A stretch of 62,858 nt of DNA, taken from Candidatus Omnitrophota bacterium. GTDB taxonomy: Bacteria > Omnitrophota > Omnitrophia > Omnitrophales > Aquincolibacteriaceae. The position numbers and the translations under genes were made by a program. The stretch is from assembly GCA_041674705.1 (NCBI GenBank), contig JBAYVF010000008.1:1-62858 (forward strand). The letters run 5' to 3'. Numbering within the stretch: the first letter of the stretch is position 1; every line of letters begins with the position of its first letter. Positions 52,001-62,858 of the stretch are shown here, in pieces. Below the pieces are notes generated by a model. The model saw only the letters and a program-made list of their open reading frames with translations, ran no database searches and had not been told where the DNA came from.

Positions 52001-55000
52001 GGATAGGCCCTTCGCTATTTTAAACCTTGATGATGAGTCCAAACGTATGTGGGCGGATGCGGTGGAGAAAATGCGTATTGAGAATCCGCCGTTATGGGCA
52101 TTTATTCAAGAGCATTGTCCCTGGATTTCCGGTGGACCGTTGAAGGAACGCAAGTCTGAACCTGCGAAACTTTGCTATATGGTAACTAATTATCTCCTTA
52201 TTGCCGCCAGCGGGTTAATTTACCCGTGCTGTGTAATGCCGGCATCGGCTCCCCGAACGAATCTCGGGCACATTACACAATCTTTGGAAGAGCTTCTTCG
52301 TAGACGTATGAAATTCATGTTCGCGCTACCTAAACGCTGTCGCATAGGTTGTCATATAGGCAATACGCTATCCGGGCAGACTGTAAAAAGACTATTATTG
52401 GAACCGGCCAATGCGGCTAACCCGGATTTGAAAATTAAAAACGCTCAAGCGACGAATGGAGTACAAGTCTCCGCGACTATTTCTTCAAACACCAAACAAG
52501 TAGGTCAGATCCAGCCCACCGTTAATGAACGAGAGAATCGATCTGAAATGCGCGCCAATGCTGTTGACTTAGCGCAGCAGAATAAAGATCTGATCGATCG
52601 CTTATTTTATGCGAAAGGTGTGCTGGCTGCCGAAGGTGCGAGGGTGGAGATGGCGAAGCGCGGGTTGATACTTTTAGAGCAATTTCCGATCGAAGATAAA
52701 CAAGTTATGGGTGCTGTTTTTAGGATGCGAGTTCGGGAAGTTCTGGGATCACGGATTTTATTGGCTGTGAAAGTTCCTAGCGTTGAGCGTGCGGCGTATT
52801 ATTCTTACGCGTTTGGAAATGTTGATTTGCTTGTATTACCAGCTGGCCCAAAGCCGGTTGAGCAACGGATGGCTAATGCCGTGCTGGATGAGTCAATGGT
52901 AAAACGATTGCCACCCTCCGTCTTTCCGAAAATATTTCGATATCTTGATTTTGGGCAGAGACTGAATTTGCAGACATTGAACTTTATTTTAGATTACCCT
53001 TGGAATGCTTCCAGTCCGGATGTTTATGAGCGAGAACTTGCTCAACTCCGCAAATACAGAAATGAAGCACCCCTGGGGCGCTTAATAACGAATAGAGAGA
53101 TGTTCCCAACGGATCGCGACGGAAATTTATACGCTCTTCATATTACAAGTGGCAAGTCAGCTATTCTTACATCTGCGAATAAAGAGATGCATACTACGCC
53201 CCATGCAGTTGGACCCGTTATTTATGCAACACCGCTTATCAGGAATGGTTTGAAACCGCTTTCTGAATCAGCAAAACCGGTCAGCCTGGCTGAAGATGTA
53301 TGGAAAAATCTGAGCGCTCGCCGGGAGATCGCTCATGATGAAAACATTGACAACTATGGGCTCGTGATCCGCGTTCCCTATCAAAGCGCTAGCGCAAATC
53401 GATTGACGAATTGGGTCGACTATTTTGGCTTCGGGCGCGCCGAACTCGAGACCTATTATCGTTTTCGAGCTAGGCCGGAGTGGACACCCGTTATGGATAG
53501 CATTATCCAGAAAGAGGTTGCCAGACAATATAACAGTTCCCATGAATTTCTTAAGAAAATATTGGGTAGCCGAAGCGTGGATGTCCAGCGAGATTGGCCG
53601 GCTTTCTGGGGCGCATTTAAAGAAGCTAGGGGCAATATGCCGATCCTCAATCACGCGTTTTTTGAAATCTTAAAATCTTATATTTTATTATTTCAAAACG
53701 ATCAGCAGTCGTTTGCAATGCGCGATGAGGGAAATATGAATGTGGGGCTTCAATACAAAGTGCTTTTTGAGGTCGATCCGAATCAGCGGATGCATTTCAG
53801 TACCCAACGTTTTACGCCCGAGATAGATGCTCTTCTGATCGCGCTCGCTAAGCATATCCGTTCCTTTTCTTCCGACCATTTTAAGGCATATGTCATGGAA
53901 CGCTTCCCGATGTTTATTGCCATTAAATTCTTAGAAGGTGAAACCCTTTCAGGTCCAGTCGATCAATTTGACGACTTGGCTGTGCGGCTTCCGAATATCG
54001 CTGGTTTATTACATTATAATGTTGCGTACGATAAGCTTTTAGAAACCTCATCGGATTTGAAATATGAGTATCAGCTTGTTTTTTCGCAGGTTTTGCGAGA
54101 CATTTTTAGAAAACGACGTATTTTTGTCCCGATTTTTGGGATGATGGTTCCGACGGGCGAATTAGGCGTGTGGCAGATGGGCGATGAAGATATTAAAATT
54201 TTTGATTTGTATTTTGATTTGCCCAAGCAAATAAGCCCATTAACTATTGGTAAGTCGTTGGATATTCATATCGCACGAAATAAGACGATTCGGGATGAAG
54301 AACGAGGATTAAGCTACAAGAGACCGGTGCGCGACGAATCTACTGCAGCTCATTCGGAGGAGAGTGATAAGCGGGATCGAAAAGAACATGGAAAACGTTC
54401 CGAAATACGAACTGTTACAGAATTATTGACGGACCGATATGCCTCGGTGGTGGGGCTGGAAGTGGAGGTCGGGCAACTGGATGAGGCGAGGCTTTCTTCT
54501 GTGACGCTGACGGCGCTTGTGCATGGCGGGATCTTTAACATTGGAATTTCTTCTGCGAAGATCGAAGCTGCGATTCGTGAAGTCCAGGCCGCGATGGCGG
54601 GGGATCTTTGGAGCGGAAATCTGAAGCGACTTCAAAAGGTGATGGCGTCCCGTCCGGATTCGATTTTTAAACCGTCGGATGCCCAGGGGGGGCTGATCGT
54701 TCCTCTTAAAGGTTTACCCGCCTCAGACCAGATCGCTCGCGATGTGTTTGCGATGATCACGAATACGGGCGTTCGGAAAACATATGTGTTGGAAGACGTA
54801 TCGGAGGCAGCTTGGAGATCTTTGCTCGAGCCCTTTGCGGCGACGAAAGATCTAAGAGGCGAATCGGTGCTTGATCGCTTGAAGATCGTTCCTGCAAAAA
54901 AAGGCGACCTGATGAAAGTAGTTTCGAGCTATGGCACGGGCATGGCACATCTTCTTGAGATGGATCCCCAGGATATTGTGGTGCTTTTTGAAGGGGCTGG

Positions 55001-55280
55001 GGCGGTTCCCGCCAGGGAGCGGATGGCTCAGACCATGATCGTCTCGGATCTTGGGGGTCGAGAGAATCTTGGACCGGCGCGCGATTACCTTGCGATGTGG
55101 GCGTCCATGATGAATGTCCGGATGGATAACGATGCCTGGACGCTTCTTAACCAAAAAGTTGCGAACGCTCTGAAAAAGAAGGACGGATTTTTTAAAATGG
55201 ATCGCGATGCCCTGGCAGGCCTTGCCGAGATCTTGAGCCAGATCTTTGTGCAGGAGCGGGTGACCTCAACGGCAGCGTAG
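37080..55280 (+). CDS. Giant multi-enzyme protein G3 (6,066 aa)
   Basis: Uninterrupted 18.2-kb ORF with TTG start and AAGGAG. Signal-like N-terminus, shared N-terminal domain, more than 12 enzyme-like domains separated by R[SA]ExR. Ends ..QERVTSTAA*. Confidence 0.93.
   Translation: [6066 protein letters not shown]
37275..37339. repeat. Heptamer inverted repeat, in frame in the G3 N-terminus
   Basis: CGGGGAA CGGGGAA CGGAGAA ... TTTCCCG TTCCCCG TTTGCCG TTTCCCG. Confidence 0.7.
37350..38760 (+). other. Conserved N-terminal domain of giant proteins (G3 copy)
   Basis: IENAH (H at 37374), FVEGAAE, QREKVF, VTGGFH (38634-38645); colinear with the G2 domain. Confidence 0.8.
38447..38507. repeat. 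GTCAT..ATGAC two-hairpin miniature element, in frame in G3
   Basis: GTCATCCCCGAACGTTTTAATCGGGGATC-AAGGTC-TGGATTCCCGCTTTCGCGGGAATGAC. Confidence 0.85.
39180..40350 (+). other. Radical SAM domain 1 with C-x15-C-x2-C and a SPASM/twitch-like tail
   Basis: Cys at 39291, 39339 and 39348; VTGGGEP, MNTNG; C-terminal LCF...GMCCD...HCIVGC. Confidence 0.75.
40600..41950 (+). other. GT-A glycosyltransferase, mannosyl-/glucosylglycerate synthase-like
   Basis: [14 protein letters not shown], LIDSD (DxD), [36 protein letters not shown], EKIHK. Confidence 0.7.
41990..42660 (+). other. 2H phosphoesterase-like domain
   Basis: Two His motifs, LHTAI (42201) and IHMTL (42468), with typical spacing. Confidence 0.65.
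42700..43740 (+). other. NAD-dependent epimerase/dehydratase (extended SDR) domain
   Basis: [20 protein letters not shown], YELGK (YxxxK), [9 protein letters not shown], RDYI. Confidence 0.85.
43750..44780 (+). other. ROK-family sugar/cyclitol kinase domain
   Basis: [44 protein letters not shown]. Confidence 0.85.
44830..45960 (+). other. Sugar-phosphate cyclase (DHQS superfamily; sedoheptulose-7-P cyclase/EEVS-like)
   Basis: [63 protein letters not shown] (45597), HGEAVAID. Confidence 0.85.
46340..47290 (+). other. HAD-superfamily phosphatase domain 1
   Basis: FDIDGT (46374), FATVRG, K in RKNEAL, FFGDD...GLD. Confidence 0.75.
47620..48820 (+). other. Two tandem type I phosphoribosyltransferase-like domains
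   Basis: [11 protein letters not shown] (47955) in the first; degenerate [11 protein letters not shown] in the second. Separated by RTEVK at 48204. Confidence 0.65.
50420..51150 (+). other. HAD-superfamily phosphatase domain 2
   Basis: ASDWDGS (50448), VITTAA, LVMGDD..PMGND. Confidence 0.7.
51380..52400 (+). other. Radical SAM domain 2 (canonical CxxxCxxC) with a SPASM/twitch-like tail
   Basis: [13 protein letters not shown] (51447-51470), GGGEPTI, LGTNG, LCY...IYPCC...RCRIGC. Confidence 0.85.
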
Positions 55281-55372
55281 CGGTTCTAGTTTTAATTCCT
55301 GCTTTAAGACCGGGTCTTAGAATTCCAAGATTCGGTCTTTTGTATTTGTCCCCCATTGCAGAAGAGGAGATC

Positions 55373-55462
55373 ATGAACTTATCACAAATTGTGATAAGTT
55401 CGGGGATCAAGCACGCTCCCATTCCCGAAAAAAAGAAAGGGCCGATCGGCTTCCATCCGTAG
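55373..55462 (+). pseudogene. 29-codon ORF resembling an internally deleted ORF6N-type DNA-binding protein gene, containing a 25-bp palindrome
   Basis: SD GAGGAG then MNLSQIVISSGIKHAPIPEKKKGPIGFHP*. Palindrome AACTTATCACAA-A-TTGTGATAAGTT at 55376-55400. SQIVISS and K..IGF resemble ORF6N motifs (recollection, not searched). Confidence 0.4.
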
Positions 55463-55513
55463 AAGCCCCGGTCTTTTGCTGCAGTCTCCAGTCTGTGGTC
55501 TCCGGTCTAGTTA

Positions 55514-55522
55514 TGATATAAT
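55514..55522 (+). promoter_or_regulatory. Extended -10 element upstream of nadE (possibly leaderless)
   Basis: TGaTATAAT ends 8 nt before the ATG at 55531; no SD is visible. Confidence 0.5.
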
Positions 55523-55530
55523 TCCGCGTT

Positions 55531-57357
55531 ATGAAACCTCCTCTTAAAATTGCGATTGCGCAAATGAATCCCACTGTCGGAGATTATGCTTCGAATACGG
55601 CGAGGATCCTTCGATGGCTTGATCTGGCTGAGCGGCAAGGCGCGGATCTGATCGTTTTCCCTGAGGCCGCTCTCTGCGGCTATCCTGTCTGGGATCTTGC
55701 CAATAAAAAGCAATTCCTGGCCGAAGGAATGAAGTGTTTGAAAAAGATCGCGGCGGCTACCCGGAAAAAGAATATCGCAGTCGTGGTCGGTTTTATTGAT
55801 GCAGGTACGGCGTACGGAGTAAGGTGTACGGCGAAAACGTCTGACGCCGTACACCGTACACCTTACGCTTTTAATGCTCTCGCCTGGATCGAAAAGGGCA
55901 AGATCCGGACGATTTATCACAAACAATTGTTGCCCACCTATGATGTCTTTTTGGAAGATATCTTCTTTCGGCCCGGGACCGAGACCAAGGTCGTCTCTTT
56001 TCGAGGTTATAAAGTGGGGCTGACGATCTGTGAGGATATGTGGGACGAACGTTATGAGGTCAAGCCCCTTGCTGCGCTTGCGAAAAAGAAAGCCGAGCTT
56101 GTCCTTAATATTTCCGCTTCGCCCTATTACCGGGCTGTTGCCGCGGCCCGCGAAAAGCTTCTTCAAGGCCATGTGCGCCGCTATGGTTTCCCGATCCTTT
56201 ATGTGAATCAGGTCGGGGGGCAGGACGACCTGCTTTTCGACGGCCGCAGTCTTTTTATGGACGCGAAAGGCCGCGTTCTTTTTAAGGCACCCGCGTTTGA
56301 AGAGGGGCTTTTCTTTTTCAGCCATGATCCTTCTCAACCTCCGAGGTTGAAAATCCGACCTCGGAGGTTGGATCCGGTTCGAGAGGTGTATCAGGCGCTT
56401 GTGATGGGCGTGCGGGATTATTTCCGGAAGAATGGGTTCAGGAAAGCTGTGATCGGTTTGAGCGGCGGGATCGATTCCGCTTTGGTTGCGACGATCGCGG
56501 TGGATGCTCTTGGAAAAGAGGCTGTCAAAGGTGTGACGATGCCCGGGCCTTTTTCCTCCGAAGGGAGCTGGAAAGATTCCGAAGAACTCGCGAAGAACCT
56601 TGGCATTGCTTTTGAAGTGAGGCCGATCAAAGAAATGTACCGGACGTTTTTAAAAAAAGGCAAAGCCCCCTCACCTTTGTCCTCTCCCCAGGGGAGAGGG
56701 TTGGGTGAGGGGAATGCTGCTCAGGGAAAGGGGCCGACGCTAGCGATGGAAAATCTTCAGGCGCGGCTACGCGGCATGGAGCTCATGTTCATTTCGAATG
56801 ATGAAGGCCGTTTGGTCCTGACGACCGGAAATAAATCCGAGCTGGCCATGGGGTATTGCACGCTTTATGGCGACATGGCGGGCGGCCTTGCGGTGATCGG
56901 CGATGTTTATAAAACTGATGTCTACCGGCTTGCACGCTACCGGAACACCCTTAAGAAAGTGATCCCGGAGGCCACGCTTACCAAGGCTCCGTCTGCGGAA
57001 CTCCGGCCCAACCAGAAGGATCAGGATTCGTTGCCGTCTTATGATGCGCTGGATGAAGTGCTCGGCCTCTATATTGAAAAAAATCTGAGCCGTGATGAGA
57101 TCATCCGGAAGCTGATGAGGAAAGGAAAGGCTTTTATGTCATTCCCGCATGTTGTAAGCGGGAATCCAGATTCTGGATCCCCGATAAAAGCATTCGGGGA
57201 TGACAAGACAAAGAGAATCTCTCTCTTAGTAAACGAAGTGGTCCGTAAGGTGGACCATAATGAATACAAGCGCCGCCAAACGCCTCCCATTCTGCGTGTA
57301 ACCGAAAAAGCATGGTTCGGACGCCGCATGCCGATCACGAATCGATTTTTGGGGTAG
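55531..57357 (+). CDS. nadE: Glutamine-dependent NAD+ synthetase
   Basis: Nitrilase-type E-K-C triad (FPEAALCGY, YHKQLLP, ICEDMW) plus synthetase motifs GLSGGIDS, NLQARLR, TGNKSE, PSAEL and NEYKRRQ. Carries three in-frame repeat insertions. Confidence 0.97.
   Translation: MKPPLKIAIAQMNPTVGDYASNTARILRWLDLAERQGADLIVFPEAALCGYPVWDLANKKQFLAEGMKCLKKIAAATRKKNIAVVVGFIDAGTAYGVRCTAKTSDAVHRTPYAFNALAWIEKGKIRTIYHKQLLPTYDVFLEDIFFRPGTETKVVSFRGYKVGLTICEDMWDERYEVKPLAALAKKKAELVLNISASPYYRAVAAAREKLLQGHVRRYGFPILYVNQVGGQDDLLFDGRSLFMDAKGRVLFKAPAFEEGLFFFSHDPSQPPRLKIRPRRLDPVREVYQALVMGVRDYFRKNGFRKAVIGLSGGIDSALVATIAVDALGKEAVKGVTMPGPFSSEGSWKDSEELAKNLGIAFEVRPIKEMYRTFLKKGKAPSPLSSPQGRGLGEGNAAQGKGPTLAMENLQARLRGMELMFISNDEGRLVLTTGNKSELAMGYCTLYGDMAGGLAVIGDVYKTDVYRLARYRNTLKKVIPEATLTKAPSAELRPNQKDQDSLPSYDALDEVLGLYIEKNLSRDEIIRKLMRKGKAFMSFPHVVSGNPDSGSPIKAFGDDKTKRISLLVNEVVRKVDHNEYKRRQTPPILRVTEKAWFGRRMPITNRFLG
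55805..55868. repeat. GTACGGC heptamer inverted repeat, in frame in nadE
   Basis: GTACGGC GTACGGA GTAAGGT GTACGGC ... CGCCGTA CACCGTA CACCTTA. Same family as 58323-58390. Confidence 0.8.
56667..56712. repeat. CCCTCTCCC/GGGAGAGGG REP-like element, in frame in nadE
   Basis: CCCCTCACC..CCTCTCCCC-A-GGGGAGAGG..GGTGAGGGG, encoding PSPLSSPQGRGLGEG. Confidence 0.8.
57138..57204. repeat. GTCAT..ATGAC miniature element, in frame in nadE
   Basis: GTCATTCCCGCATGTTGTAAGCGGGAATCCAGATTCTGGATCCCCGATAAAAGCATTCGGGGATGAC. Confidence 0.85.
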
Positions 57358-57399
57358 CAAAAATCGAGACCGCAGACCACAGACTCTAGACTACAGCCA

Positions 57400-57888
57400 A
57401 TGCAAAAGCTTCGAAAAATTTCTGTAAAAACCCGCGCTGGGACTTTTGTGCTTGAAATGAGTTCCAAGGGGCTTTGGGCCGTGCGGTTTCCGGTGTTTTC
57501 GCGCGTCACATCGGGGACACTCACTTTTTCGCGAACAATGAATGTCCCCGCTTTTAAAAAAATCCGGAAGATGAAGCTCGATCTTACGGGTTACACCCCA
57601 TTTCAGGCCAAGGTCTATGCCGCGCTTCGCAAGGTGCGGGCCGGCCAGACCGTGACATATGGCGAGCTTGCAAGGCGAGCAGGATATCCCGGCGCGGCTC
57701 GTGCCGTCGGAAGCGCCATGAAAAAGAACCGCCTTCCGATCATCGTCCCGTGTCACCGGGTCCTTCCCGCGGTGGGTGGGCTTGGGGAATATTCGGCAGG
57801 GAAGAAGTGGAAGCGGTGGTTGTTGGAATATGAATTAAAGCAGGATGGTGGAGGGAGGATGGAGCGAAATAGAAAAGCAAAGGCTTGA
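57400..57888 (+). CDS. ogt: Methylated-DNA-[protein]-cysteine S-methyltransferase
   Basis: TPFQAKVYAALRKV..GQTVTYGELA...AARAVGSAM..N.LPIIVPCHRV (PCHR active site). Confidence 0.93.
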   Translation: MQKLRKISVKTRAGTFVLEMSSKGLWAVRFPVFSRVTSGTLTFSRTMNVPAFKKIRKMKLDLTGYTPFQAKVYAALRKVRAGQTVTYGELARRAGYPGAARAVGSAMKKNRLPIIVPCHRVLPAVGGLGEYSAGKKWKRWLLEYELKQDGGGRMERNRKAKA

Positions 57889-57911
57889 CGCCATCCACCA
57901 TCCGTCATCCA
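57843..57911. repeat. GGATGG heptamer inverted repeat overlapping the ogt stop
   Basis: GGATGGT GGAGGGA GGATGGA ... CCATCCA CCATCCG TCATCCA. Confidence 0.65.
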
Positions 57912-57986
57912 ATACGATTAAGTGCCTTTGTGCTCGTGTAACGCCATGCTATAATGCCGAAACTTTTTTGAGGAAAGGGAGTCAAA

Positions 57987-58319
57987 TTGCAGCCTAAAAA
58001 GATCGCCGAATTGTTAAGAACGCTTGCGGAAGACAAGAAGGCCGAAGAACCGGTCCTTCTGGATATTTCCAAGCAGTCCAGCATTGCGCATTATTTCCTG
58101 ATCTGTCACGGGAATAGCGACCGCCATGTGAAGTCCATTGCGATGCATCTGATGGATGAAATGAAGCAGAAGAAGATGCAAGCCTTCCACGTCGAGGGCC
58201 TGGTGGAAGGGAAATGGGTGCTTCTCGACTTCGGACCTGTGATCGCCCATATCTTCTATCATGAAACCCGAGAATTCTACGGCCTCGAGCGGCTGTGGGG
58301 AGAAGCGAAGAAAATATAA
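57987..58319 (+). CDS. rsfS: Ribosome silencing factor RsfS (Iojap)
   Basis: DKKAEEPVLLDI, YFLICHGNSDRHVKSIA, WVLLDFGPVIAHIF..ETREFYGLERLW; SD AGGGAG; TGCTATAAT upstream. Confidence 0.95.
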   Translation: MQPKKIAELLRTLAEDKKAEEPVLLDISKQSSIAHYFLICHGNSDRHVKSIAMHLMDEMKQKKMQAFHVEGLVEGKWVLLDFGPVIAHIFYHETREFYGLERLWGEAKKI

Positions 58320-58322
58320 AGA

Positions 58323-58390
58323 GTACTGCGTACGGAGTACGGCGTACGGCGAAAAAAATACGCCGTACGCGTGACGCCTTCCGCCGTACG
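58323..58390. repeat. GTACGGC heptamer inverted repeat, intergenic rsfS-argS
   Basis: GTACTGC GTACGGA GTACGGC GTACGGC GAAAA... CGCCGTA CGCGTGA CGCCTTC CGCCGTA. Confidence 0.8.
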
Positions 58391-58396
58391 AGTCTT

Positions 58397-60058
58397 ATGA
58401 AATCCAAACTCGAAATCCTCATCAATTCCGTGGTCGACGCATATTGCAGCCAGCAGGGCGCTGCAAAGCCCGAGGGCTTTGCGTATGACCTCCATCCTCC
58501 CAAAGACAGCCAGCACGGGGACCTTTCGTGCAATGTCGCGTTCCGGCTCGCAAAAGTCACACGTCAAAAGCCCGCCGAGATCGCTGACGGATTGATCAAG
58601 TTGCTTGAGCAAAAGCCCGCCAAGGATTCCCCGGTCGAAAAAACGGAGATCGCCGGCGGGGGATTCATCAATTTCTACCTGACAAAGTCAGGTCTCGGCG
58701 CAGTACTCCTCGAAATCCATAAGCAGGACAAGCATTACGGCCGTTCCGATTTCGGAAAAGGCAAAAAGGCCATCCTGGAATTTGTGAGTGCCAATCCCAC
58801 GGGGCCGCTCACGATCGCGCACGGCCGCCAGGCTGCGATCGGGGATTGTCTGGCGCGCATCCTCAAGTTCACAGGCCATGCGGTGCATTCGGAATATTAT
58901 CTGAACGATGCCGGTCGCCAGATGCGGATGCTGGCTCAAAGCGTCTGGGTCCGCTACAACGAACTTTTGGGAATGGAGATGCCGTTCCCCGAGGAAGGTT
59001 ATCAGGGGGATTATGTCCGCGAGATTGCGCGCGATATTATTGAAAAGGAAAAGAAGGATTCACTCCTTAAAGATCCTGAAGCAAAGGCGGTCGAATATTG
59101 CGGGCTTTATGCGGTCAAGTATCTGATGGGCACGATCGAAGCGGATCTTGCCAAAATGCGGGTTCACTTCGATCATTTTTTCAGCGAGAAGACGCTTTAT
59201 GCCAAAAATGAAGTGGAGCACGCGCTCGGGGTTCTGAAAGAAAAGGGCTATCTTTATGAAAGCGAGGGCGCGCTTTGGTTCCGTTCGACAGATCTTGGGG
59301 ATGATAAGGATCGAGTGGTCAAAAAATCCACGGGGGAATATACGTATTTGGCGCCGGATATTGCGTACCATCTTTCCAAGTACGAACGCGGCTACAACAT
59401 GCTTGTTAATTTCTGGGGGCCGGACCACCACGGCTATATCCCGCGCCTCAAGGCCGCTTGCCAGGTGCTGGGTTATCCTCCGGAAGCCATTCATATCGGG
59501 ATCGTTCAGCTGACCACGCTTTTCAGGAAGGGACAGCCGGTCCGGATGTCCACGCGTGCCGGGGAATTCGTGACGCTCAAGGAACTTTATGACGAAGTGG
59601 GCGTGGACGCAACGCGATTTTTCTTTGTAATGCGCCGCCAGGAAAGTCATCTGGATTTTGATCTCGATCTCGCCAAAGAGCAATCGCAGGAGAATCCCGT
59701 TTTTTATCTGCAGTACGCCCATGCCAGGATCGCGAGTCTTGCGAAGTATGCCGAGCAGGGGATCACGACAAAGGTAGATCTGAAACTTCTTGCGACGCCG
59801 GAAGAAGCCGAGCTGATCGGTTGTCTTTCGCAATTTTCCGAATATCTCATTCAGGCGAGCCGTTCGACCGAGCCGTACCGCTTAGCGGATTATTTGCGTC
59901 AGGTGGCGGCGTGCTTTCATAAGTTCTACAGTCATCACCGCATTGTTACCGAAGACAAAGAGCTGACCAAGGCGCGTCTTCTGTTGGCCGATGCCACCCG
60001 CATCGTCCTCCGCAACGGCCTCGAGCTTCTCGGCATCTCCCAACCGGAGAGTATGTAG
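58397..60058 (+). CDS. argS: Arginine--tRNA ligase
   Basis: HGDLSCNVAF, FVSANPTGPLTIAHGR (HIGH-like), YYLNDAGRQ, TYLAPDIAYH, MSTRAG, NPVFYLQYAHARI. Start 58397 preferred because the longer 5' part is repeat-derived. Confidence 0.96.
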   Translation: MKSKLEILINSVVDAYCSQQGAAKPEGFAYDLHPPKDSQHGDLSCNVAFRLAKVTRQKPAEIADGLIKLLEQKPAKDSPVEKTEIAGGGFINFYLTKSGLGAVLLEIHKQDKHYGRSDFGKGKKAILEFVSANPTGPLTIAHGRQAAIGDCLARILKFTGHAVHSEYYLNDAGRQMRMLAQSVWVRYNELLGMEMPFPEEGYQGDYVREIARDIIEKEKKDSLLKDPEAKAVEYCGLYAVKYLMGTIEADLAKMRVHFDHFFSEKTLYAKNEVEHALGVLKEKGYLYESEGALWFRSTDLGDDKDRVVKKSTGEYTYLAPDIAYHLSKYERGYNMLVNFWGPDHHGYIPRLKAACQVLGYPPEAIHIGIVQLTTLFRKGQPVRMSTRAGEFVTLKELYDEVGVDATRFFFVMRRQESHLDFDLDLAKEQSQENPVFYLQYAHARIASLAKYAEQGITTKVDLKLLATPEEAELIGCLSQFSEYLIQASRSTEPYRLADYLRQVAACFHKFYSHHRIVTEDKELTKARLLLADATRIVLRNGLELLGISQPESM

Positions 60059-60072
60059 ATGGCAGGGGGCAA

Positions 60073-60104
60073 CCCTCTCCCTTCAGGGAGAGGGAAGGGT
60101 GAGG
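60073..60104. repeat. CCCTCTCCC/GGGAGAGGG REP-like hairpin after argS
   Basis: CCCTCTCCC-TTCA-GGGAGAGGG-AAGGGTGAGG; same family as 56667-56712. Confidence 0.75.
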
Positions 60105-60132
60105 TCGTGGTATCAAGGTTTCAGGTCTCTTT

Positions 60133-60492
60133 GTCATCCCCGAATGTTTTAATCGGGGATCCATTTTATGAATGACTTCTTTCTTTACATTCTTGCCAGC
60201 AAAAAAAACGGAACTCTTTACATTGGCGTGACGAACGATCTTGCTAAGCGGATCTATGAGCACAAGAATGATTTGGTTGAAGGGTTTACGAAGCGCTATG
60301 GAGTCCACTTTCTGGTTCATTTTGAGATAACAGATTCTATAGAAAGTGCCATTGCAAGAGAGAAGCAGCTCAAGAAGTGGAACCGCCAATGGAAGATCGA
60401 ATTGATTGAAAAGGGCAATCCGGAATGGGCGGATCTTTATCTGCGTATCGTAAATGGGGAGAAAGATGGATCCCCGCTTTCGCGGGGATGAC
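60133..60492 (+). mobile_element. Candidate autonomous element: left hairpin arm, GIY-YIG nuclease gene, right hairpin arm
   Basis: Left arm 60133-60163 GTCATCCCCGAATGTTTTAATCGGGGATCCA and right arm 60467-60492 TGGATCCCCGCTTTCGCGGGGATGAC are the two halves of the miniature elements at 38447, 57138, 61272 and 62729. Confidence 0.6.
60168..60491 (+). CDS. GIY-YIG nuclease family protein (small, standalone)
   Basis: FLYILASKKNGTLYIGVTNDLAKRIYEHK...GFTKRY...AIAREKQLKKWNRQWKIELIE..NPEW. Confidence 0.93.
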   Translation: MNDFFLYILASKKNGTLYIGVTNDLAKRIYEHKNDLVEGFTKRYGVHFLVHFEITDSIESAIAREKQLKKWNRQWKIELIEKGNPEWADLYLRIVNGEKDGSPLSRG

Positions 60493-61527
60493 ATGAAGAA
60501 AAATCCGTTGGTTCTTTTCATTGTGGGTCCTACCGCCTCAGGAAAATCAGCTCTTGCGGTCGCGCTCGCTAAAAAACTCGACGGTGAAATCCTCTCCGCG
60601 GATTCCATGCTTGTCTACAAGGGGATGGATATCGGGACCGCGAAACCCACAAAAAAAGAGCGCGGCGATATTCCGCATTACGGTCTTGACCTTATTCCGC
60701 CTACCAAAAGTTTCTCGGTTTTTGCCTACCGCCAATATGCTCTCAAGGTCCTCAAGGATATCGTCAGGCGTGGCAAGATCCCTATAGTAGCCGGGGGGAC
60801 TGGCTTTTACGTTAGGGCCCTTCTGGAGGGGCTTTCTCCTCTACCCGGCACTCATGCCGCTATACGGGCAAAGCTCGAGCGGGAGGCCCAGGCGAAGGGC
60901 TTGCCGGCCCTCTATAAACGCCTGCGTAAGTTGGACCCCCGAAGGGCCAAGGCGATCGGGCCTCACAATCAGAGGCGCATCATACGGGCTTTGGAGATCT
61001 ACCTCGCCTCAGGGAAGAAGCCTTCCGAGCCGGCTCCGAAAACGCCGGGTCTTCGGGAGCTGGGCTACAAGCCTTTTGTGATCGGCCTTCACCGGGATCG
61101 TGAGGCGCTTTATCAGAAGATCAATCAGCGCGTGGATACCATGTTCCGAAAAGGGCTCGTGCGCGAAGTGACGCGTCTTGCCCGGAAAAAACTTTCCAAA
61201 ACCGCGCTTCAAGGCGTGGGGTATAAAGAGACGCTTGATTGGATTAAAAATAAGTCGAGCAAAATACCGATGTCATTCCCGCGTGTAATAAGCGGGAATC
61301 CAGAGCGTGGATCCCCGATTAAAGCATTCGGGGATGACAAAGCGAGGGGGACTCCGGTCTCTATAAATGATGTCAAAAATACAATCAAGCAAACAACGCG
61401 GCACTTTGCGAAACGACAGTGGACCTGGTTCAAGCGTGAGAGCGGTATTTGTTGGGTCTGGTGGCCGGAAGGCGCCAGCCTGAAAAGCATTTGTGATCTT
61501 GTCATCCAAAAATTCCAGAGGCTCTAA
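60493..61527 (+). CDS. miaA: tRNA dimethylallyltransferase
   Basis: VGPTASGKS, SADSMLVYKGMDIGTAKP, GGTGFY, NQRRIIRALE, GVGYKE, TRHFAKRQWTWF. Start 60493 chosen because upstream codons are repeat-derived. Confidence 0.96.
   Translation: MKKNPLVLFIVGPTASGKSALAVALAKKLDGEILSADSMLVYKGMDIGTAKPTKKERGDIPHYGLDLIPPTKSFSVFAYRQYALKVLKDIVRRGKIPIVAGGTGFYVRALLEGLSPLPGTHAAIRAKLEREAQAKGLPALYKRLRKLDPRRAKAIGPHNQRRIIRALEIYLASGKKPSEPAPKTPGLRELGYKPFVIGLHRDREALYQKINQRVDTMFRKGLVREVTRLARKKLSKTALQGVGYKETLDWIKNKSSKIPMSFPRVISGNPERGSPIKAFGDDKARGTPVSINDVKNTIKQTTRHFAKRQWTWFKRESGICWVWWPEGASLKSICDLVIQKFQRL
61272..61338. repeat. GTCAT..ATGAC miniature element, in frame in miaA
   Basis: GTCATTCCCGCGTGTAATAAGCGGGAATCCAGAGCGTGGATCCCCGATTAAAGCATTCGGGGATGAC; near-identical to the nadE copy. 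Confidence 0.85.
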
Positions 61528-61529
61528 GA

Positions 61530-62603
61530 ATGCCACGCGATAAAGTCTGCCTCGTCATTATCAAAACCGGCGCCCGGGATCTTCCGGACCTTCGGGAGGT
61601 TTTGGAAGAAATGACAGAACTCACCGAATCGGCGCAGGGGATCGTGGTCGCGAGCCTTACGGCGAGCGTTCCGCATCCAAGTCCAAGCCATTTTATCCGC
61701 GGAGGAAAGATCGAAGAATTGCGGGAAGAGATCGCAAAGACGGGGGCGAACGTGGTGATCTTCAGCGTGGACCTGACGCCTGCCCAGGCACGGAACCTCG
61801 AGACTGAATGTGGTAAACGCGTTGTGGACCGGACGGGTCTTATTTTGGATATCTTTGCGCGGCGCGCGATCTCAAGTGATGGAAAGCTCCAGGTAGAGCT
61901 CGCGCAAATGGAATATCTTCTACCGCGACTTCTGGGACTGGGCGTGGTCCTGTCGCGTCTCGGAGGCGGGATCGGGACCCGCGGGCCTGGAGAACAAATG
62001 CGTGAGGTGGACCGTCGCAAAATCCAAAGGCGCATCGATCATATCAAGGGGCAGATCGAACATCTCCGGACGCACCGCGCGCAGATGCGCCAGGGCCGCA
62101 GGCAAAAAGGGCTCAAACAAGTCGCGATCGTTGGCTACACGAACGCCGGAAAATCCACGCTTCTGAACGCCTTGACCAAAGCGGACGCTTATGTCGAGAA
62201 CCGGCTTTTTGCGACGCTCGATCCCAAGACGCGGATCTATGAGGATGGCCGTGGTCCGGGCATTCTTTTCACCGACACCGTGGGTTTCATCCGCAATTTG
62301 CCGCACGGGCTTGTGAAGGCATTCCACGCGACACTTGAAGAAGTTCTGGATGCGGATTTGATCCTCATCGTGGTGGATGCGGCGACCGAACACGCCGTAC
62401 AGCATAAACGCGTGGTGGATGAAGTCCTCAAAGAGCTGGGCGCGGAATCCCGGCCAAGGCTTCTCACCCTTAACAAGATCGATCTTCTGGGCGATCCGGA
62501 GAAGGCCCGGATCCAGGATGTTTTTCCGGAGGCGGTGCTTATCTCGGCCACGCAAAAGCTCGGGATGCAGGAATTGATCGCAAGGGTCCGGCAAATGTTG
62601 TGA
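61530..62603 (+). CDS. hflX: Ribosome-splitting GTPase HflX
   Basis: ILDIFARRA, LQVELAQ..Y.LPRL, GGGIGTRGPGE, GYTNAGKST, LFATLDP, DTVGFIR.LP, NKID. Confidence 0.96.
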   Translation: MPRDKVCLVIIKTGARDLPDLREVLEEMTELTESAQGIVVASLTASVPHPSPSHFIRGGKIEELREEIAKTGANVVIFSVDLTPAQARNLETECGKRVVDRTGLILDIFARRAISSDGKLQVELAQMEYLLPRLLGLGVVLSRLGGGIGTRGPGEQMREVDRRKIQRRIDHIKGQIEHLRTHRAQMRQGRRQKGLKQVAIVGYTNAGKSTLLNALTKADAYVENRLFATLDPKTRIYEDGRGPGILFTDTVGFIRNLPHGLVKAFHATLEEVLDADLILIVVDAATEHAVQHKRVVDEVLKELGAESRPRLLTLNKIDLLGDPEKARIQDVFPEAVLISATQKLGMQELIARVRQML

Positions 62604-62668
62604 CACCGGGCCACCACGTCACCTGTCACCAAGCCGTTTTTTCGGTGTCATGGTGTCTTGGTGACTTG
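62600..62668. repeat. Degenerate CACC/GGTG inverted repeat (about 8-nt period) at the hflX end
   Basis: GTGACACCGGGCCACCACGTCACCTGTCACC ... GGTGTCAT GGTGTCTT GGTGACTT. Confidence 0.55.
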
Positions 62669-62728
62669 GGATCTTTATGGTACAATTTCGCCTGTTTTTC
62701 CCGCCGCACTATAACTTTATTTACACAT

Positions 62729-62788
62729 GTCATCCCCGAATGTTTTTGTCGGGGATCCAGCCTGGATTCCCGCTTTCGCGGGAATGAC
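62729..62788. repeat. GTCAT..ATGAC miniature element, intergenic
   Basis: GTCATCCCCGAATGTTTTTGTCGGGGATCCAGCCTGGATTCCCGCTTTCGCGGGAATGAC. Confidence 0.85.
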
Positions 62789-62829
62789 AAAGTTCTTGGA
62801 CCGTCATTGAATCGAGAAAGGGAACTATT

Positions 62830-62858
62830 ATGGATACATGCATGACGAGTTTGCCGAG
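62830..62858 (+). CDS. Possible start of the next gene, cut by the window edge (unidentifiable)
   Basis: GAAAGGGA upstream of the ATG at 62830; only about 9 codons visible. Confidence 0.3.

What the first reader, a model, noticed from the sequence alone, without database searches (positions are those of the whole stretch)
55531..61527. Housekeeping enzymes carry in-frame palindromic DNA insertions: three different families in NadE, one in MiaA
Seen: NadE has TAYGVRCTAKTSDAVHRTPY (55805), PSPLSSPQGRGLGEG (56667) and MSFPHVVSGNPDSGSPIKAFGDDK (57138). MiaA has MSFPRVISGNPERGSPIKAFGDDK (61272), with the same element, frame and orientation as in NadE. Catalytic motifs are intact. Established: Rickettsia palindromic elements set a precedent for coding insertions. 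Three unrelated families in one essential enzyme suggests very active repeat traffic creating new peptide loops.
Basis: partly seen in the sequence, partly recalled or inferred. Interest (0 to 1): 0.7.

Follow-up and report, generated by a model that had tools for sequence, protein, structure and literature searches.

The report
Hairpin DNA repeats translated inside enzymes
In this uncultivated Omnitrophota bacterium, short hairpin-forming DNA repeats that litter the genome also sit in frame in floppy surface loops of NadE, MiaA and at least 14 other ordinary genes. This is a new example of the "selfish DNA inside genes" known from Rickettsia, and one repeat family turns out to be the known target motif of a small nuclease encoded next to miaA.

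Summary
NadE carries four hairpin repeats in frame, not three: families A, B, C and a small family D. MiaA carries a second family C copy, 90% identical, in the same frame and orientation. All four families are dispersed in the 1.78-Mb genome, at about 75, 13, 36 and 7 loci.

Both genes are single-copy and intact, with dN/dS of 0.09-0.20. In AlphaFold models the inserts fall in low-confidence coils between helices or strands.

The habit is genome-wide. Pfam confirmed 14 further hosts, including PriA, UvrA, UvrD, DprA, CysS, ValS, QueA and IspDF.

Family C is a dimer of the published NTS/SRM motif, a CGTC-type REP. The window encodes an SsnA-like GIY-YIG nuclease flanked by this motif directly upstream of miaA. 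Within the genus, carrying that nuclease goes with a high family C copy number (p = 0.003).

Across 120 Omnitrophota NadE proteins, 64 insertions fall in only five loops and come from several families.

This is a new member of a known kind: Rickettsia palindromic elements and intragenic REPs. It appears unreported for Omnitrophota.

The parts
55531..57357 (+). nadE, glutamine-dependent NAD+ synthetase, 608 aa. It is the host gene for four in-frame hairpin elements.
   Evidence: Pfam CN_hydrolase plus NAD_synthase. PDB relatives 4f4h and 5kha at E = 1e-114. The AlphaFold model matches them with TM 0.75-0.77. Single copy in the genome. dN/dS 0.09-0.14.
55804..55870 (+). Family A element: a hairpin whose arms are arrays of the heptamer GTACGGN. 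It encodes residues about 92-114 (GTAYGVRCTAKTSDAVHRTPYAF).
   Evidence: Inverted repeat of 24-nt arms. 75 loci in the genome. z = -4.9. pLDDT below 50 for residues 94-109, in a coil between strands 83-90 and 114-121. It replaces a loop of about 12 residues in orthologs, a net gain of 10.
56335..56373 (+). Family D element, not in the original finding: perfect 13-nt inverted repeat in the interdomain linker. It encodes QPPRLKIRPRRLD.
   Evidence: 7 loci, also in ValS, MqnA, a DUF1016-SNase protein and a giant ORF. Ortholog L005 carries the same family at the same site. The linker 266-281 is coil in the model.
56668..56712 (+). Family B element: two nested GC-rich stems. It is a clean 45-nt, 15-codon insertion encoding PSPLSSPQGRGLGEG.
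   Evidence: 13 loci in the genome, of which 9-10 lie inside ORFs. z = -7.3. pLDDT below 50 for residues 378-400, between helices 367-377 and 404-425.
57137..57205 (+). Family C element: a dimer of two different SRM/NTS-type hairpins in inverted orientation (TGTCAT...ATGACA). It is 69 nt, 23 codons, and encodes (M)SFPHVVSGNPDSGSPIKAFGDD(K).
   Evidence: The left arm 57137-57169 matches the published SRM search pattern. The empty-site-like ortholog L003 has TTTTTA|AG at the junction. pLDDT below 50 for residues 539-553, between helices 521-530 and 559-575.
60132..60163 (+). Single SRM-type hairpin (GTCATCCCCGAATGTTTTAATCGGGGATCC) immediately upstream of the GIY-YIG gene.
60168..60491 (+). SsnA-like single-domain GIY-YIG nuclease gene, 107 aa, flanked on both sides by family C hairpins.
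   Evidence: PF01541 at E = 1e-16. Flanks shown. Homologs of at least 64% identity occur in 6 of 9 congeners with at least 8 family C copies and in 0 of 10 with fewer. The gene is adjacent to miaA also in G002 and G008.
60466..60493 (-). Single SRM hairpin (TGTCATCCCCGCGAAAGCGGGGATCCAT) overlapping the 3' end of the GIY-YIG ORF. It is also the spurious N-terminal extension (MDPRFRGDDM) of the MiaA ORF.
   Evidence: Matches the published SRM pattern. Orthologs of MiaA start at the equivalent of ATG 60493.
60493..61527 (+). miaA, tRNA dimethylallyltransferase, 344 aa from the likely start. It is the host of one family C element.
   Evidence: Pfam IPPT at E = 2e-79. The model matches the E. coli MiaA-tRNA complexes 3foz and 2zm5 with TM 0.84 and rmsd 3.3 A. 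Single copy. dN/dS 0.15-0.20.
61271..61339 (+). Family C element in MiaA, with the same architecture, frame and orientation as in NadE. It encodes (M)SFPRVISGNPERGSPIKAFGDD(K).
   Evidence: 90% identity to the NadE copy. The left arm matches the SRM pattern. Residues 256-285 of the model have pLDDT below 50 and form a coil between helices 244-255 and 291-315. No ortholog in 18 relatives has this element, but 7 carry other hairpin families in the same loop.

Best explanation
The segments are copies of four dispersed, hairpin-forming DNA repeat families. They have entered the reading frames of nadE and miaA at positions that encode disordered, hypervariable surface loops. There they are read through as extra residues: net about +10, +15 and +23 in NadE and about +24 in MiaA.

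The genome is compact, about 88% coding, so many repeat copies land in genes. Only copies that keep the frame, contain no stop codon and sit in tolerant loops survive. That explains why the same few loops are hit again and again in related species.

Family C is a head-to-head dimer of the NTS/SRM motif, a CGTC-type REP. This motif is the recognition hairpin of SsnA-type GIY-YIG single-strand DNA nucleases, and one such nuclease gene, flanked by the motif, lies directly upstream of miaA. Family A is a hairpin built from inverted arrays of the heptamer GTACGGN. B and D are short GC-rich palindromes.

**Shown here:** the repeats, their family membership, the in-frame insertion points, the intact and constrained host genes, the predicted loop location, the genome-wide habit, and the co-occurrence of the nuclease gene with family C.

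**Inferred:** that the segments are translated; that they are neutral passengers; and that spread happens through single-stranded DNA hairpins, with the Ssn-like nuclease involved for family C.
For: - **Repeat families.** nhmmer finds 75, 13, 36 and 7 loci for A, B, C and D. There are 34 full family C dimers with conserved GTCAT...ATGAC ends.
- **Insertion points.** Protein and codon alignments with 19 NadE and 18 MiaA orthologs define them.
- **Host genes are functional.** Both are single-copy. Catalytic residues are invariant. dN/dS is 0.09-0.20. The identical insert-bearing NadE occurs in two assemblies.
- **Loop location.** The inserts coincide with pLDDT below 50 coil segments between secondary-structure elements. 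The model cores match solved NadE and MiaA structures. The PDB alignments have gaps at sites B and C.
- **Genome-wide habit.** Copies fully inside ORFs: A 27/75, B 9/13, C 13/36, D 5/7. Pfam-confirmed hosts are PriA, Lnt, a GT2 glycosyltransferase, MqnA, DUF1016-SNase, IspDF, a histidine kinase, CitMHS_2, DprA, UvrD, CysS, QueA, UvrA, Peptidase_MA and ValS.
- **Family C is NTS/SRM.** There are 12 exact matches to the Neisseria NTS core. The SRM pattern matches 45 times against 4-15 in shuffles. The NadE and MiaA left arms match the SRM pattern. The motif definition and the SsnA biochemistry come from PMC11893778.
- **Nuclease link.** The GIY-YIG gene is flanked by the motif. Its presence co-varies with copy number within the genus: Fisher p = 0.003, Mann-Whitney p = 0.002.
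- **Hot loops.** 64 insertions of at least 7 residues in 120 Omnitrophota NadE proteins fall in only five loops. 13 of 20 ortholog insertions are strong hairpins (z < -2.5) against 3 of 40 control segments.
- **Precedent.** Intragenic CGTC and GTAG REPs and RPE-4/RPE-6 occur often in repair genes (PMC3733652).
Against: - Translation through the elements is not shown.
- The AlphaFold models rest on shallow alignments of 19-20 sequences. They have other low-confidence segments besides the inserts, so low pLDDT alone does not prove a surface loop.
- No transposase is identified for A, B or D. No Y1/RAYT gene passes the Pfam cut-off.
- No target-site duplication is seen for C.
- Whether SsnA-type nucleases mobilise their motifs is only a hypothesis in the source paper.
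- The link between nuclease presence and copy number rests on 19 incomplete MAGs. Three repeat-rich genomes lack a detected gene.
- Concentration in five loops may reflect targeting of existing hairpins and not tolerance alone. Element A replaces the old loop instead of simply adding to it. Ortholog L002 keeps an A right arm next to a different palindrome.
Confidence: 0.85

Rival explanations
1. Slot overwriting, not independent insertion. The loops, and certain intergenic spacers, are old hairpin 'slots'. Their sequence is periodically replaced, through a hairpin-directed repair or conversion process, by whichever repeat family is amplified in that species.
For: - Element A encodes the entire loop (22 residues) where orthologs have 12, so it is a replacement and not an addition.
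- Ortholog L002 keeps the A right arm joined to a different palindrome.
- The 'uninserted' site B loops of orthologs are themselves tandem heptamer or 14-mer repeats.
- The spacer upstream of a conserved, syntenic GIY-YIG gene holds a heptamer-array hairpin in about 13 of 14 congeners, but with species-specific words: GTACGG, GGGAACG, GGGACTC, CCACG.
Against: - B and C look like clean additions of 45 and 69 nt to a loop of normal length.
- Most orthologs have short loops with no hairpin at site C.
- Repeated insertion plus deletion in a tolerant loop gives the same picture.
- No enzyme or intermediate is known.
Confidence: 0.15
2. The inserts are functional, selected features and not passengers. 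For example, they could be mRNA hairpins that slow translation or set transcript stability. They could be Ssn cutting sites that restrict recombination of incoming DNA at essential genes. Or they could be peptide loops with a role in the proteins.
For: - In Neisseria the motif-nuclease pair modulates transformation (PMC11893778).
- Elements are more often stop-free than shuffled controls: A has 3.99 open frames of 6 against 2.71, and C has 2.66 against 2.05.
- The same loops are occupied in many species.
Against: - The occupying family and peptide differ from species to species at the same loop.
- The closest relatives lack the NadE and MiaA family C copies.
- Family C is read in all three frames in different hosts.
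- Host genes are functionally unrelated.
- The predicted segments are disordered.
Confidence: 0.08
3. The genes are pseudogenes or assembly artefacts. On this reading, the repeats were joined into the genes by mis-assembly of a metagenome bin, or the genes are decaying.
For: The genome is a fragmented MAG of 58 contigs, 87% complete. Repeats are classic sites of mis-assembly.
Against: - All four NadE inserts and the MiaA insert keep the frame, with conserved sequence on both sides.
- dN/dS is 0.09-0.20.
- The same protein is present in two assemblies, on contigs of 62.9 and 114 kb.
- Dozens of independent Omnitrophota MAGs show equivalent insertions in the same loops.
Confidence: 0.02
4. The segments are removed after transcription or translation, as tiny introns, inteins or ribosomal bypass, so the mature enzymes lack them.
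For: The hairpins would be stable in RNA, with dG of -27 to -49 kcal/mol. No expression data could be obtained.
Against: - No Rfam family reaches threshold in 55000-62858.
- The elements are 39-69 nt, far below any self-splicing intron or intein, and have no intein motifs.
- They are maintained in frame and stop-free, which would be unnecessary if they were removed at the RNA level.
- By Di Nocera et al.'s citation, R. conorii proteins carrying RPE-1 elements at the N terminus are expressed in vivo.
Confidence: 0.03

Closest known systems
Rickettsia palindromic elements (RPE-1 to RPE-10; Ogata et al. 2000/2002, as summarised in PMC3733652 and PMC10969869)
   Same: Both are dispersed palindromic repeats found between genes and in frame inside many unrelated, still functional housekeeping genes. 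Both add short peptide segments in a small genome.
   Different: - A different phylum: free-living or epibiotic Omnitrophota, not an obligate intracellular alphaproteobacterium.
- The elements are smaller, 39-69 nt, against about 100-150 nt for RPE-1.
- Several unrelated families converge on the same loops of the same gene in related species.
- One family is built from heptamer arrays.
- Sequence homology to RPEs was not tested here.
Intragenic CGTC- and GTAG-tagged REPs (Di Nocera et al. 2013, PMC3733652)
   Same: - Family C starts with (T/C)GTCAT like CGTC REPs and occurs as single units and inverted dimers.
- The dimers encode 20-30 residues.
- Hosts include UvrA, UvrD, PriA and DprA, echoing the reported excess of replication and repair genes.
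- No dedicated tyrosine transposase is present.
   Different: - The in-gene fraction here is very high: 36% of C and 69% of B.
- The paper reports the most intragenic copies in R. conorii (CGTC) and O. terrae (GTAG).
- NadE and MiaA as hosts, and Omnitrophota as a phylum, were not searched for in that paper.
- Families A, B and D carry neither tag.
NTS / Ssn-related motifs with SsnA GIY-YIG ssDNA nucleases (Chenal et al. 2025, PMC11893778)
   Same: - Family C arms match the NTS core and the SRM pattern.
- A 107-aa single-domain GIY-YIG gene is flanked on both sides by the motif, the IS-like motif-gene-motif unit.
- Motif abundance co-varies with presence of the gene.
   Different: - In N. meningitidis only 2% of NTS lie inside genes. 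Here about a third do, in frame.
- The motifs occur mostly as hetero-dimers of two arm variants.
- The nuclease activity of this protein, and its membership of cd10448, were not tested.
REPIN-RAYT systems
   Same: Both have two REP-like hairpins in inverted orientation forming a larger hairpin, present in tens of copies.
   Different: No RAYT (Y1 transposase) passes the Pfam cut-off in this genome. There is no GTAG tag. The associated gene is a GIY-YIG nuclease.

Membership tests
RPE-like intragenic palindromic repeats | Dispersed repeat family with copies both between genes and inside genes | tested here: met
   A has 75 loci, B 13, C 36 and D 7. Of these, 27, 9, 13 and 5 lie fully inside ORFs.
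RPE-like intragenic palindromic repeats | Palindromic, hairpin-forming sequence | tested here: met
   Inverted repeats found. Folding z-scores range from -4.9 to -7.3.
RPE-like intragenic palindromic repeats | In-frame insertion, with the host ORF intact and under purifying selection | tested here: met
   Ortholog alignments. Invariant catalytic residues. dN/dS 0.09-0.20.
RPE-like intragenic palindromic repeats | Encoded segment lies on the protein surface, away from the core | tested here: met
   The inserts coincide with low-pLDDT coil between secondary-structure elements in the AlphaFold models. The PDB alignments have gaps at sites B and C. This rests on prediction, not a solved structure.
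RPE-like intragenic palindromic repeats | Insert is present in the mature protein | not testable with these tools
No proteomic data are available.
RPE-like intragenic palindromic repeats | Sequence homology to a named RPE family | not tested
   No RPE sequences were compared. Di Nocera et al. equate RPE-4 and RPE-6 with CGTC REPs, which is only an indirect link to family C.
NTS / SRM - Ssn system | Match to the published NTS consensus or SRM degenerate pattern | tested here: met
   12 exact NTS-core matches in the genome. The SRM pattern matches 45 times against 4-15 in ten dinucleotide shuffles. The NadE 57137-57169 and MiaA 61271-61303 arms match the SRM pattern.
NTS / SRM - Ssn system | Small single-domain GIY-YIG gene flanked by the motif on both sides | tested here: met
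   ORF 60168-60491 hits PF01541 at E = 1e-16. Hairpins lie at 60132-60163 and 60466-60493.
NTS / SRM - Ssn system | Motif abundance associated with presence of the ssn gene across genomes | tested here: met
   The gene is present in 6 of 9 congeners with at least 8 copies and in 0 of 10 with fewer (Fisher p = 0.003). The sample is small and the MAGs are incomplete.
NTS / SRM - Ssn system | Protein belongs to the Ssn clade (cd10448; BLAST E < 1e-10 to N. meningitidis SsnA) | not tested
   Only Pfam GIY-YIG membership was tested. No SsnA reference sequence was compared.
NTS / SRM - Ssn system | Nuclease cuts single-stranded DNA next to its motif | not testable with these tools
   This needs a biochemical assay.
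REPIN - RAYT | REP-associated tyrosine transposase (Y1_Tnp) in the genome | tested here: not met
   The only PF01797 hit scores 22 bits, below the 23-bit cut-off, at E = 2e-4. The genome is 87% complete.
MITE | Terminal inverted repeats plus target-site duplication | tested here: not met
   Family C has inverted ends, but the 34 aligned copies show no flanking duplication. A, B and D are simple hairpins.

The most novel reading that the evidence does not exclude
Omnitrophota may have a hairpin-directed replacement process. Existing hairpin 'slots' would be repeatedly overwritten by whichever hairpin family is currently amplified in that species. Such slots include loops of essential genes like nadE and miaA, and fixed intergenic spacers such as the one upstream of a conserved GIY-YIG gene. 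The roughly ten small GIY-YIG (Ssn-like) paralogs would act as the single-strand nucleases, each matched to one family, with the heptamer-array hairpins forming a new class of Ssn motif. On this reading the coding loops would be maintained diversification cassettes rather than accidents.
Probability: 0.15. Interest if true: 0.8.

Novelty: new member of a known kind. Interest (0 to 1): 0.45.

Why it matters
This shows that the Rickettsia-type phenomenon of selfish palindromic DNA living inside essential genes is not peculiar to intracellular parasites. It is widespread in a large, uncultivated phylum with small genomes.

It links one such in-gene repeat to the recently described Ssn nuclease and SRM motif system. 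That gives a concrete enzyme to test for how these repeats spread.

The mapped set of five permissive loops in NadE and one in MiaA is a natural experiment in where enzymes tolerate insertions of 15-30 residues. It also shows how new peptide segments can arise.

For annotation, it explains odd low-complexity peptides and false N-terminal extensions in Omnitrophota proteins, such as the MiaA and ArgS ORF starts here.

Tried and rejected
- **Sequencing runs.** I tried to find RNA or DNA runs to test for translation, removal or population polymorphism.
- **Rfam.** A scan of 55000-62858 gave only a sub-threshold miRNA chance hit on the GC-rich B palindrome. Introns and known RNA families are rejected.
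- **RAYT/IS200-type transposase.** None passes the cut-off. REPIN-RAYT membership is rejected.
- **PF05635 genes.** Earlier notes flagged these (23S rRNA IVS protein) as partners of heptamer hairpins. There are six copies, each flanked by heptamer arrays of other words, but none by family A. No partner is assigned to A this way.
- **Strain-level NadE variants lacking the inserts.** In 5.8 billion proteins the nearest non-identical relative is only 76% identical. The insertions cannot be dated as recent.
- **First inverted-repeat scanner.** My first scanner for the GIY-YIG flanks was too strict and missed the known family A copy. I replaced it with direct folding of the flanks.
- **Literature.** A search for Omnitrophota plus palindromic repeats found nothing relevant.
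- **Spurious hosts.** Several 'spanning ORFs' from the mechanical census are artefacts, for example the minus-strand ORF over 58323-58389. Four candidate hosts had no Pfam hit (L041, L043, L044; L059, L060, the latter two short). These are not counted as confirmed hosts.

Full report
**1. What is there**

The window is contig C8 of a 1.78-Mb, 58-contig, 87%-complete metagenome-assembled genome. Its close relatives are all labelled Candidatus Omnitrophota.

The ORF 55531-57357 is a glutamine-dependent NAD+ synthetase: Pfam CN_hydrolase plus NAD_synthase, with PDB relatives at E = 1e-114. The ORF 60454-61527 is MiaA (Pfam IPPT). By comparison with orthologs its real start is most likely the ATG at 60493.

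Each is encoded by an inverted repeat.

- **Family A:** 24-nt arms at 55810-55833 and 55845-55868.
- **Family B:** two nested perfect 9-nt stems within 56667-56712.
- **Family C in NadE:** 34-nt arms at 57137-57170 and 57172-57205.
- **Family C in MiaA:** 61270-61340, 90% identical to the NadE copy, in the same frame and orientation.

Folding energies are 4.9 to 7.3 standard deviations below shuffled sequence.

**2. They are members of dispersed repeat families**

Iterative nhmmer searches of the whole genome give 75 loci for A, 13 for B, 36 for C and 7 for D.

- **A** is a hairpin whose arms are arrays of the heptamer GTACGGN.
- **B and D** are short GC-rich palindromes.
- **C** has conserved ends (GTCAT...ATGAC) and is 60-88 nt long. 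It always consists of two different hairpin units in inverted orientation, and it shows no target-site duplication.

**3. They are insertions into intact, constrained genes**

I took NadE and MiaA orthologs from 30 related genomes and aligned them as proteins and codon by codon.

- **B** is a clean addition of 45 nt (15 codons) to a loop of normal length.
- **C in NadE** is a clean addition of 69 nt (23 codons) between TTTTA and AG. One ortholog, L003, has the uninterrupted sequence TTTTTA|AG at that point.
- **A** encodes 22 residues where orthologs have about 12, so it replaces the old loop (net +10).
- **D** lies in a linker of variable length. Ortholog L005 carries the same family at the same place.
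- **C in MiaA** is absent from all 18 orthologs examined.

Several lines show the genes are functional.

- Downstream sequence stays conserved and in frame.
- The catalytic residues fall in invariant alignment columns. These are the NadE Glu-Lys-Cys triad and SGGxDS motif, and the MiaA P-loop and DS motif.
- dN/dS against four orthologs each is 0.09-0.14 for NadE and 0.15-0.20 for MiaA.
- Neither gene has a second copy in the genome.
- The insert-bearing NadE occurs in two assemblies.

Where orthologs have equally long loops, those loops are themselves hairpin repeats of other families.

**4. Where the inserts lie in the proteins**

AlphaFold models built from the ortholog alignments match solved structures.

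| Model | Best PDB matches | TM-score |
|---|---|---|
| NadE | 4f4h, 5kha | 0.75-0.77 |
| MiaA | E. coli MiaA-tRNA complex 3foz, 2zm5 | 0.84 (rmsd 3.3 A) |

The inserts coincide with low-confidence coil.

| Insert | Low-confidence or coil residues | Flanking structure |
|---|---|---|
| NadE A | 94-109 | strands 83-90 and 114-121 |
| NadE B | 378-400 | helices 367-377 and 404-425 |
| NadE C | 539-553 | helices 521-530 and 559-575 |
| NadE D | linker 266-281 | between the two domains |
| MiaA C | 256-285 | helices 244-255 and 291-315 |

The alignments are shallow and the NadE model has other weak segments, so this is supporting evidence and not proof.

**5. It is a genome-wide habit**

A mechanical census counted copies fully inside long ORFs: 27 of 75 A, 9 of 13 B, 13 of 36 C and 5 of 7 D. 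The genome is about 88% coding by the same crude measure.

Pfam confirmed 15 further host proteins:

- PriA
- Lnt
- a GT2 glycosyltransferase
- MqnA
- a DUF1016-SNase protein
- the IspD-IspF fusion, with the element in the linker
- a histidine kinase
- a CitMHS_2 transporter
- DprA
- UvrD
- CysS
- QueA
- UvrA
- a Peptidase_MA protein
- ValS

The Lnt copy sits 41 residues from the ORF start and may lie upstream of the true start. Several giant ORFs are also hosts, including the 6,066-codon ORF in this window.

Family C is read in all three frames in different hosts. The shared frame in NadE and MiaA therefore has no special meaning. Four elements in one 1.8-kb gene is unlikely by chance (P = 0.002).

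**6. Family C is a known motif with a candidate enzyme next door**

A lead from earlier notes of this scan led me to Chenal et al. 2025 (PMC11893778). They define the Neisseria NTS as CGTCATTCCCGCGMAVGCGGGAATCYRG. They also define a degenerate 'Ssn-related motif' (SRM). They show that the small GIY-YIG nuclease SsnA cuts single-stranded DNA next to the motif, and that ssnA genes are typically flanked by it.

The evidence in this genome:

- The 27-nt NTS core occurs 12 times exactly.
- The SRM pattern matches 45 times, against 4-15 in dinucleotide shuffles.
- The left arms of the NadE and MiaA elements match the SRM pattern.
- The ORF 60168-60491, between argS and miaA, is a 107-residue single-domain GIY-YIG protein.
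- That ORF has a family C hairpin on each side, at 60132-60163 and 60466-60493.
- The downstream hairpin encodes the nuclease's last residues and produces the false MDPRFRGDDM extension of the MiaA ORF.

Among 19 congeneric genomes, family C ranges from 0 to 34 copies. A homolog of this nuclease of at least 64% identity is present in 6 of the 9 genomes with at least 8 copies. It is absent from all 10 genomes with fewer (Fisher p = 0.003). The nuclease gene is also adjacent to miaA in the two relatives G002 and G008.

Di Nocera et al. 2013 (PMC3733652) had already described CGTC-tagged REPs. They found no dedicated transposase for them. They noted that such REPs occur inside genes, often replication and repair genes, as dimers encoding 20-30 residues. 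They equated them with Rickettsia RPE-4 and RPE-6.

Family C inside UvrA, UvrD, PriA, CysS, QueA, NadE and MiaA fits that description. What differs is the frequency: about a third of copies are in genes here, against 2% of NTS in N. meningitidis.

**7. The same loops are hit again and again**

In orthologs, the NadE and MiaA loops carry other hairpins.

- **L002, NadE site A, and L033, MiaA loop:** a perfect palindrome, ATCACACTGCGTAAGTGTG...
- **L006, NadE site B:** GGGACTC heptamer arrays.
- **L010, NadE site C:** a GGGTCAGACACAATTT palindrome.
- **L022 and L023, MiaA loop:** GTCATTGCGAG-type hairpins.
- **L025 and L032, MiaA loop:** CCCTGTACACACC palindromes.

Of 20 ortholog insertions of at least 7 residues, 13 are strong hairpins (z < -2.5), against 3 of 40 control segments from the same genes.

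In 120 Omnitrophota NadE proteins retrieved from the large protein collection, 64 insertions of at least 7 residues fall in only five loops.

| Loop | Sequences with an insertion |
|---|---|
| Site A | 19 |
| Interdomain linker | 2 |
| Site B | 17 |
| A site near residue 474 | 5 |
| Site C | 21 |

These include a family C-type peptide at site B in one species and a B-type peptide at site B in another.

The simplest reading is many independent insertions filtered by tolerance. Some details point instead to targeting or replacement of existing hairpins.

- A overwrites the old loop.
- L002 retains an A right arm next to a new palindrome.
- The 'baseline' site B loops are themselves short tandem repeats.
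- A conserved, syntenic GIY-YIG gene (contig C7:43061-43354) is preceded by a heptamer-array hairpin in about 13 of 14 congeners, but with species-specific words.

I carry this as the main rival and as the boldest reading.

**8. What could not be done**

Translation, RNA-level removal and population polymorphism are therefore untested.
- Rfam shows nothing above threshold.
- No RAYT-type transposase passes the cut-off.
- PF05635 genes are flanked by heptamer arrays of other words, not by family A.
- No near-identical NadE lacking the inserts exists in the protein collection, so the insertions cannot be dated.
- No paper in the held library reports such repeats in Omnitrophota.

**9. Verdict**

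This is a new member of a known kind: RPE-like intragenic REPs.

For family C, the repeat can now be named (NTS/SRM, a CGTC-type REP) and a candidate partner enzyme sits in the window. Earlier notes of this scan describe the same habit in other Omnitrophota genomes, including nadE and miaA in another genome. The marginal surprise is therefore moderate.

Noticed in passing
window 60132-60494: An IS-like unit of hairpin, GIY-YIG gene, hairpin lies between argS and miaA. The nuclease ORF ends inside its 3' hairpin. The same hairpin creates a false 13-codon N-terminal extension of the MiaA ORF.
   Followed up: yes
window 58323-58389: A family A hairpin lies in the rsfS-argS spacer. The mechanical ArgS ORF (start 58295) reads through it (TAYGVRRTAKKIRRTRDAFRRTS). 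The real start is probably further downstream (MKSKLEIL), so this copy is intergenic.
   Followed up: partly
window 37080-55280 (element at 38447-38509): A 6,066-codon giant ORF carries a family C dimer in frame (PSSPNVLIGDQGLDSRFRGNDM). Giant ORFs on other contigs carry many A, B and D copies, for example five A copies within 1.5 kb on contig C34.
   Followed up: partly
window 60071-60104: A family B hairpin lies just after the argS stop, 28 nt from the family C hairpin. Different families therefore sit side by side in spacers as well as in genes.
   Followed up: no
window 62600-62680 and 62727-62790: Downstream of hflX there is a heptamer-array hairpin with the word GTGACAC/GTCACCT. A similar word flanks a PF05635 gene on contig C9. 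A further family C dimer follows it.
   Followed up: partly
window 57358-57402 and 57512-57550: The nadE-ogt spacer is a short tandem run of heptamers (AGACCGC AGACCAC AGACTCT AGACTAC). The N-terminal part of ogt holds a unique 8-bp-stem hairpin (GGGGACA...TGTCCCC) that is not a repeat family in this genome.
   Followed up: partly
G000 contig C7:42905-43395 (locus L141/L145) and loci L146-L160: A GIY-YIG gene conserved and syntenic in 29 of 31 related genomes is flanked here by family A hairpins on both sides. In congeners the same upstream spacer holds heptamer-array hairpins with different, species-specific words.
   Followed up: partly
G000 contigs C24:9244, C11:55872, C9:46761, C5:49214, C10:42396, C10:56776: Six PF05635 (23S rRNA IVS protein family) genes are each bracketed by inverted heptamer arrays with their own word. 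None uses the family A word.
   Followed up: partly
G000 contig C11:28122-28379 (locus L142): A second Ssn-like GIY-YIG paralog, 45% identical, is flanked by GTCATTGCGAG-type hairpins. That type is translated in the MiaA loop of relatives L022 and L023 and at NadE site C of P0009 and P0025.
   Followed up: partly
locus L015 (NadE of G017) and proteins P0015, P0021, P0027, P0032, P0059: A 28-residue insertion (TVPIPINFLGEEIGAVQTTIMEEKQKVW) lies at a fifth NadE loop near residue 474. It is shared by five proteins. Its DNA forms two strong hairpins (z = -6.3).
   Followed up: partly
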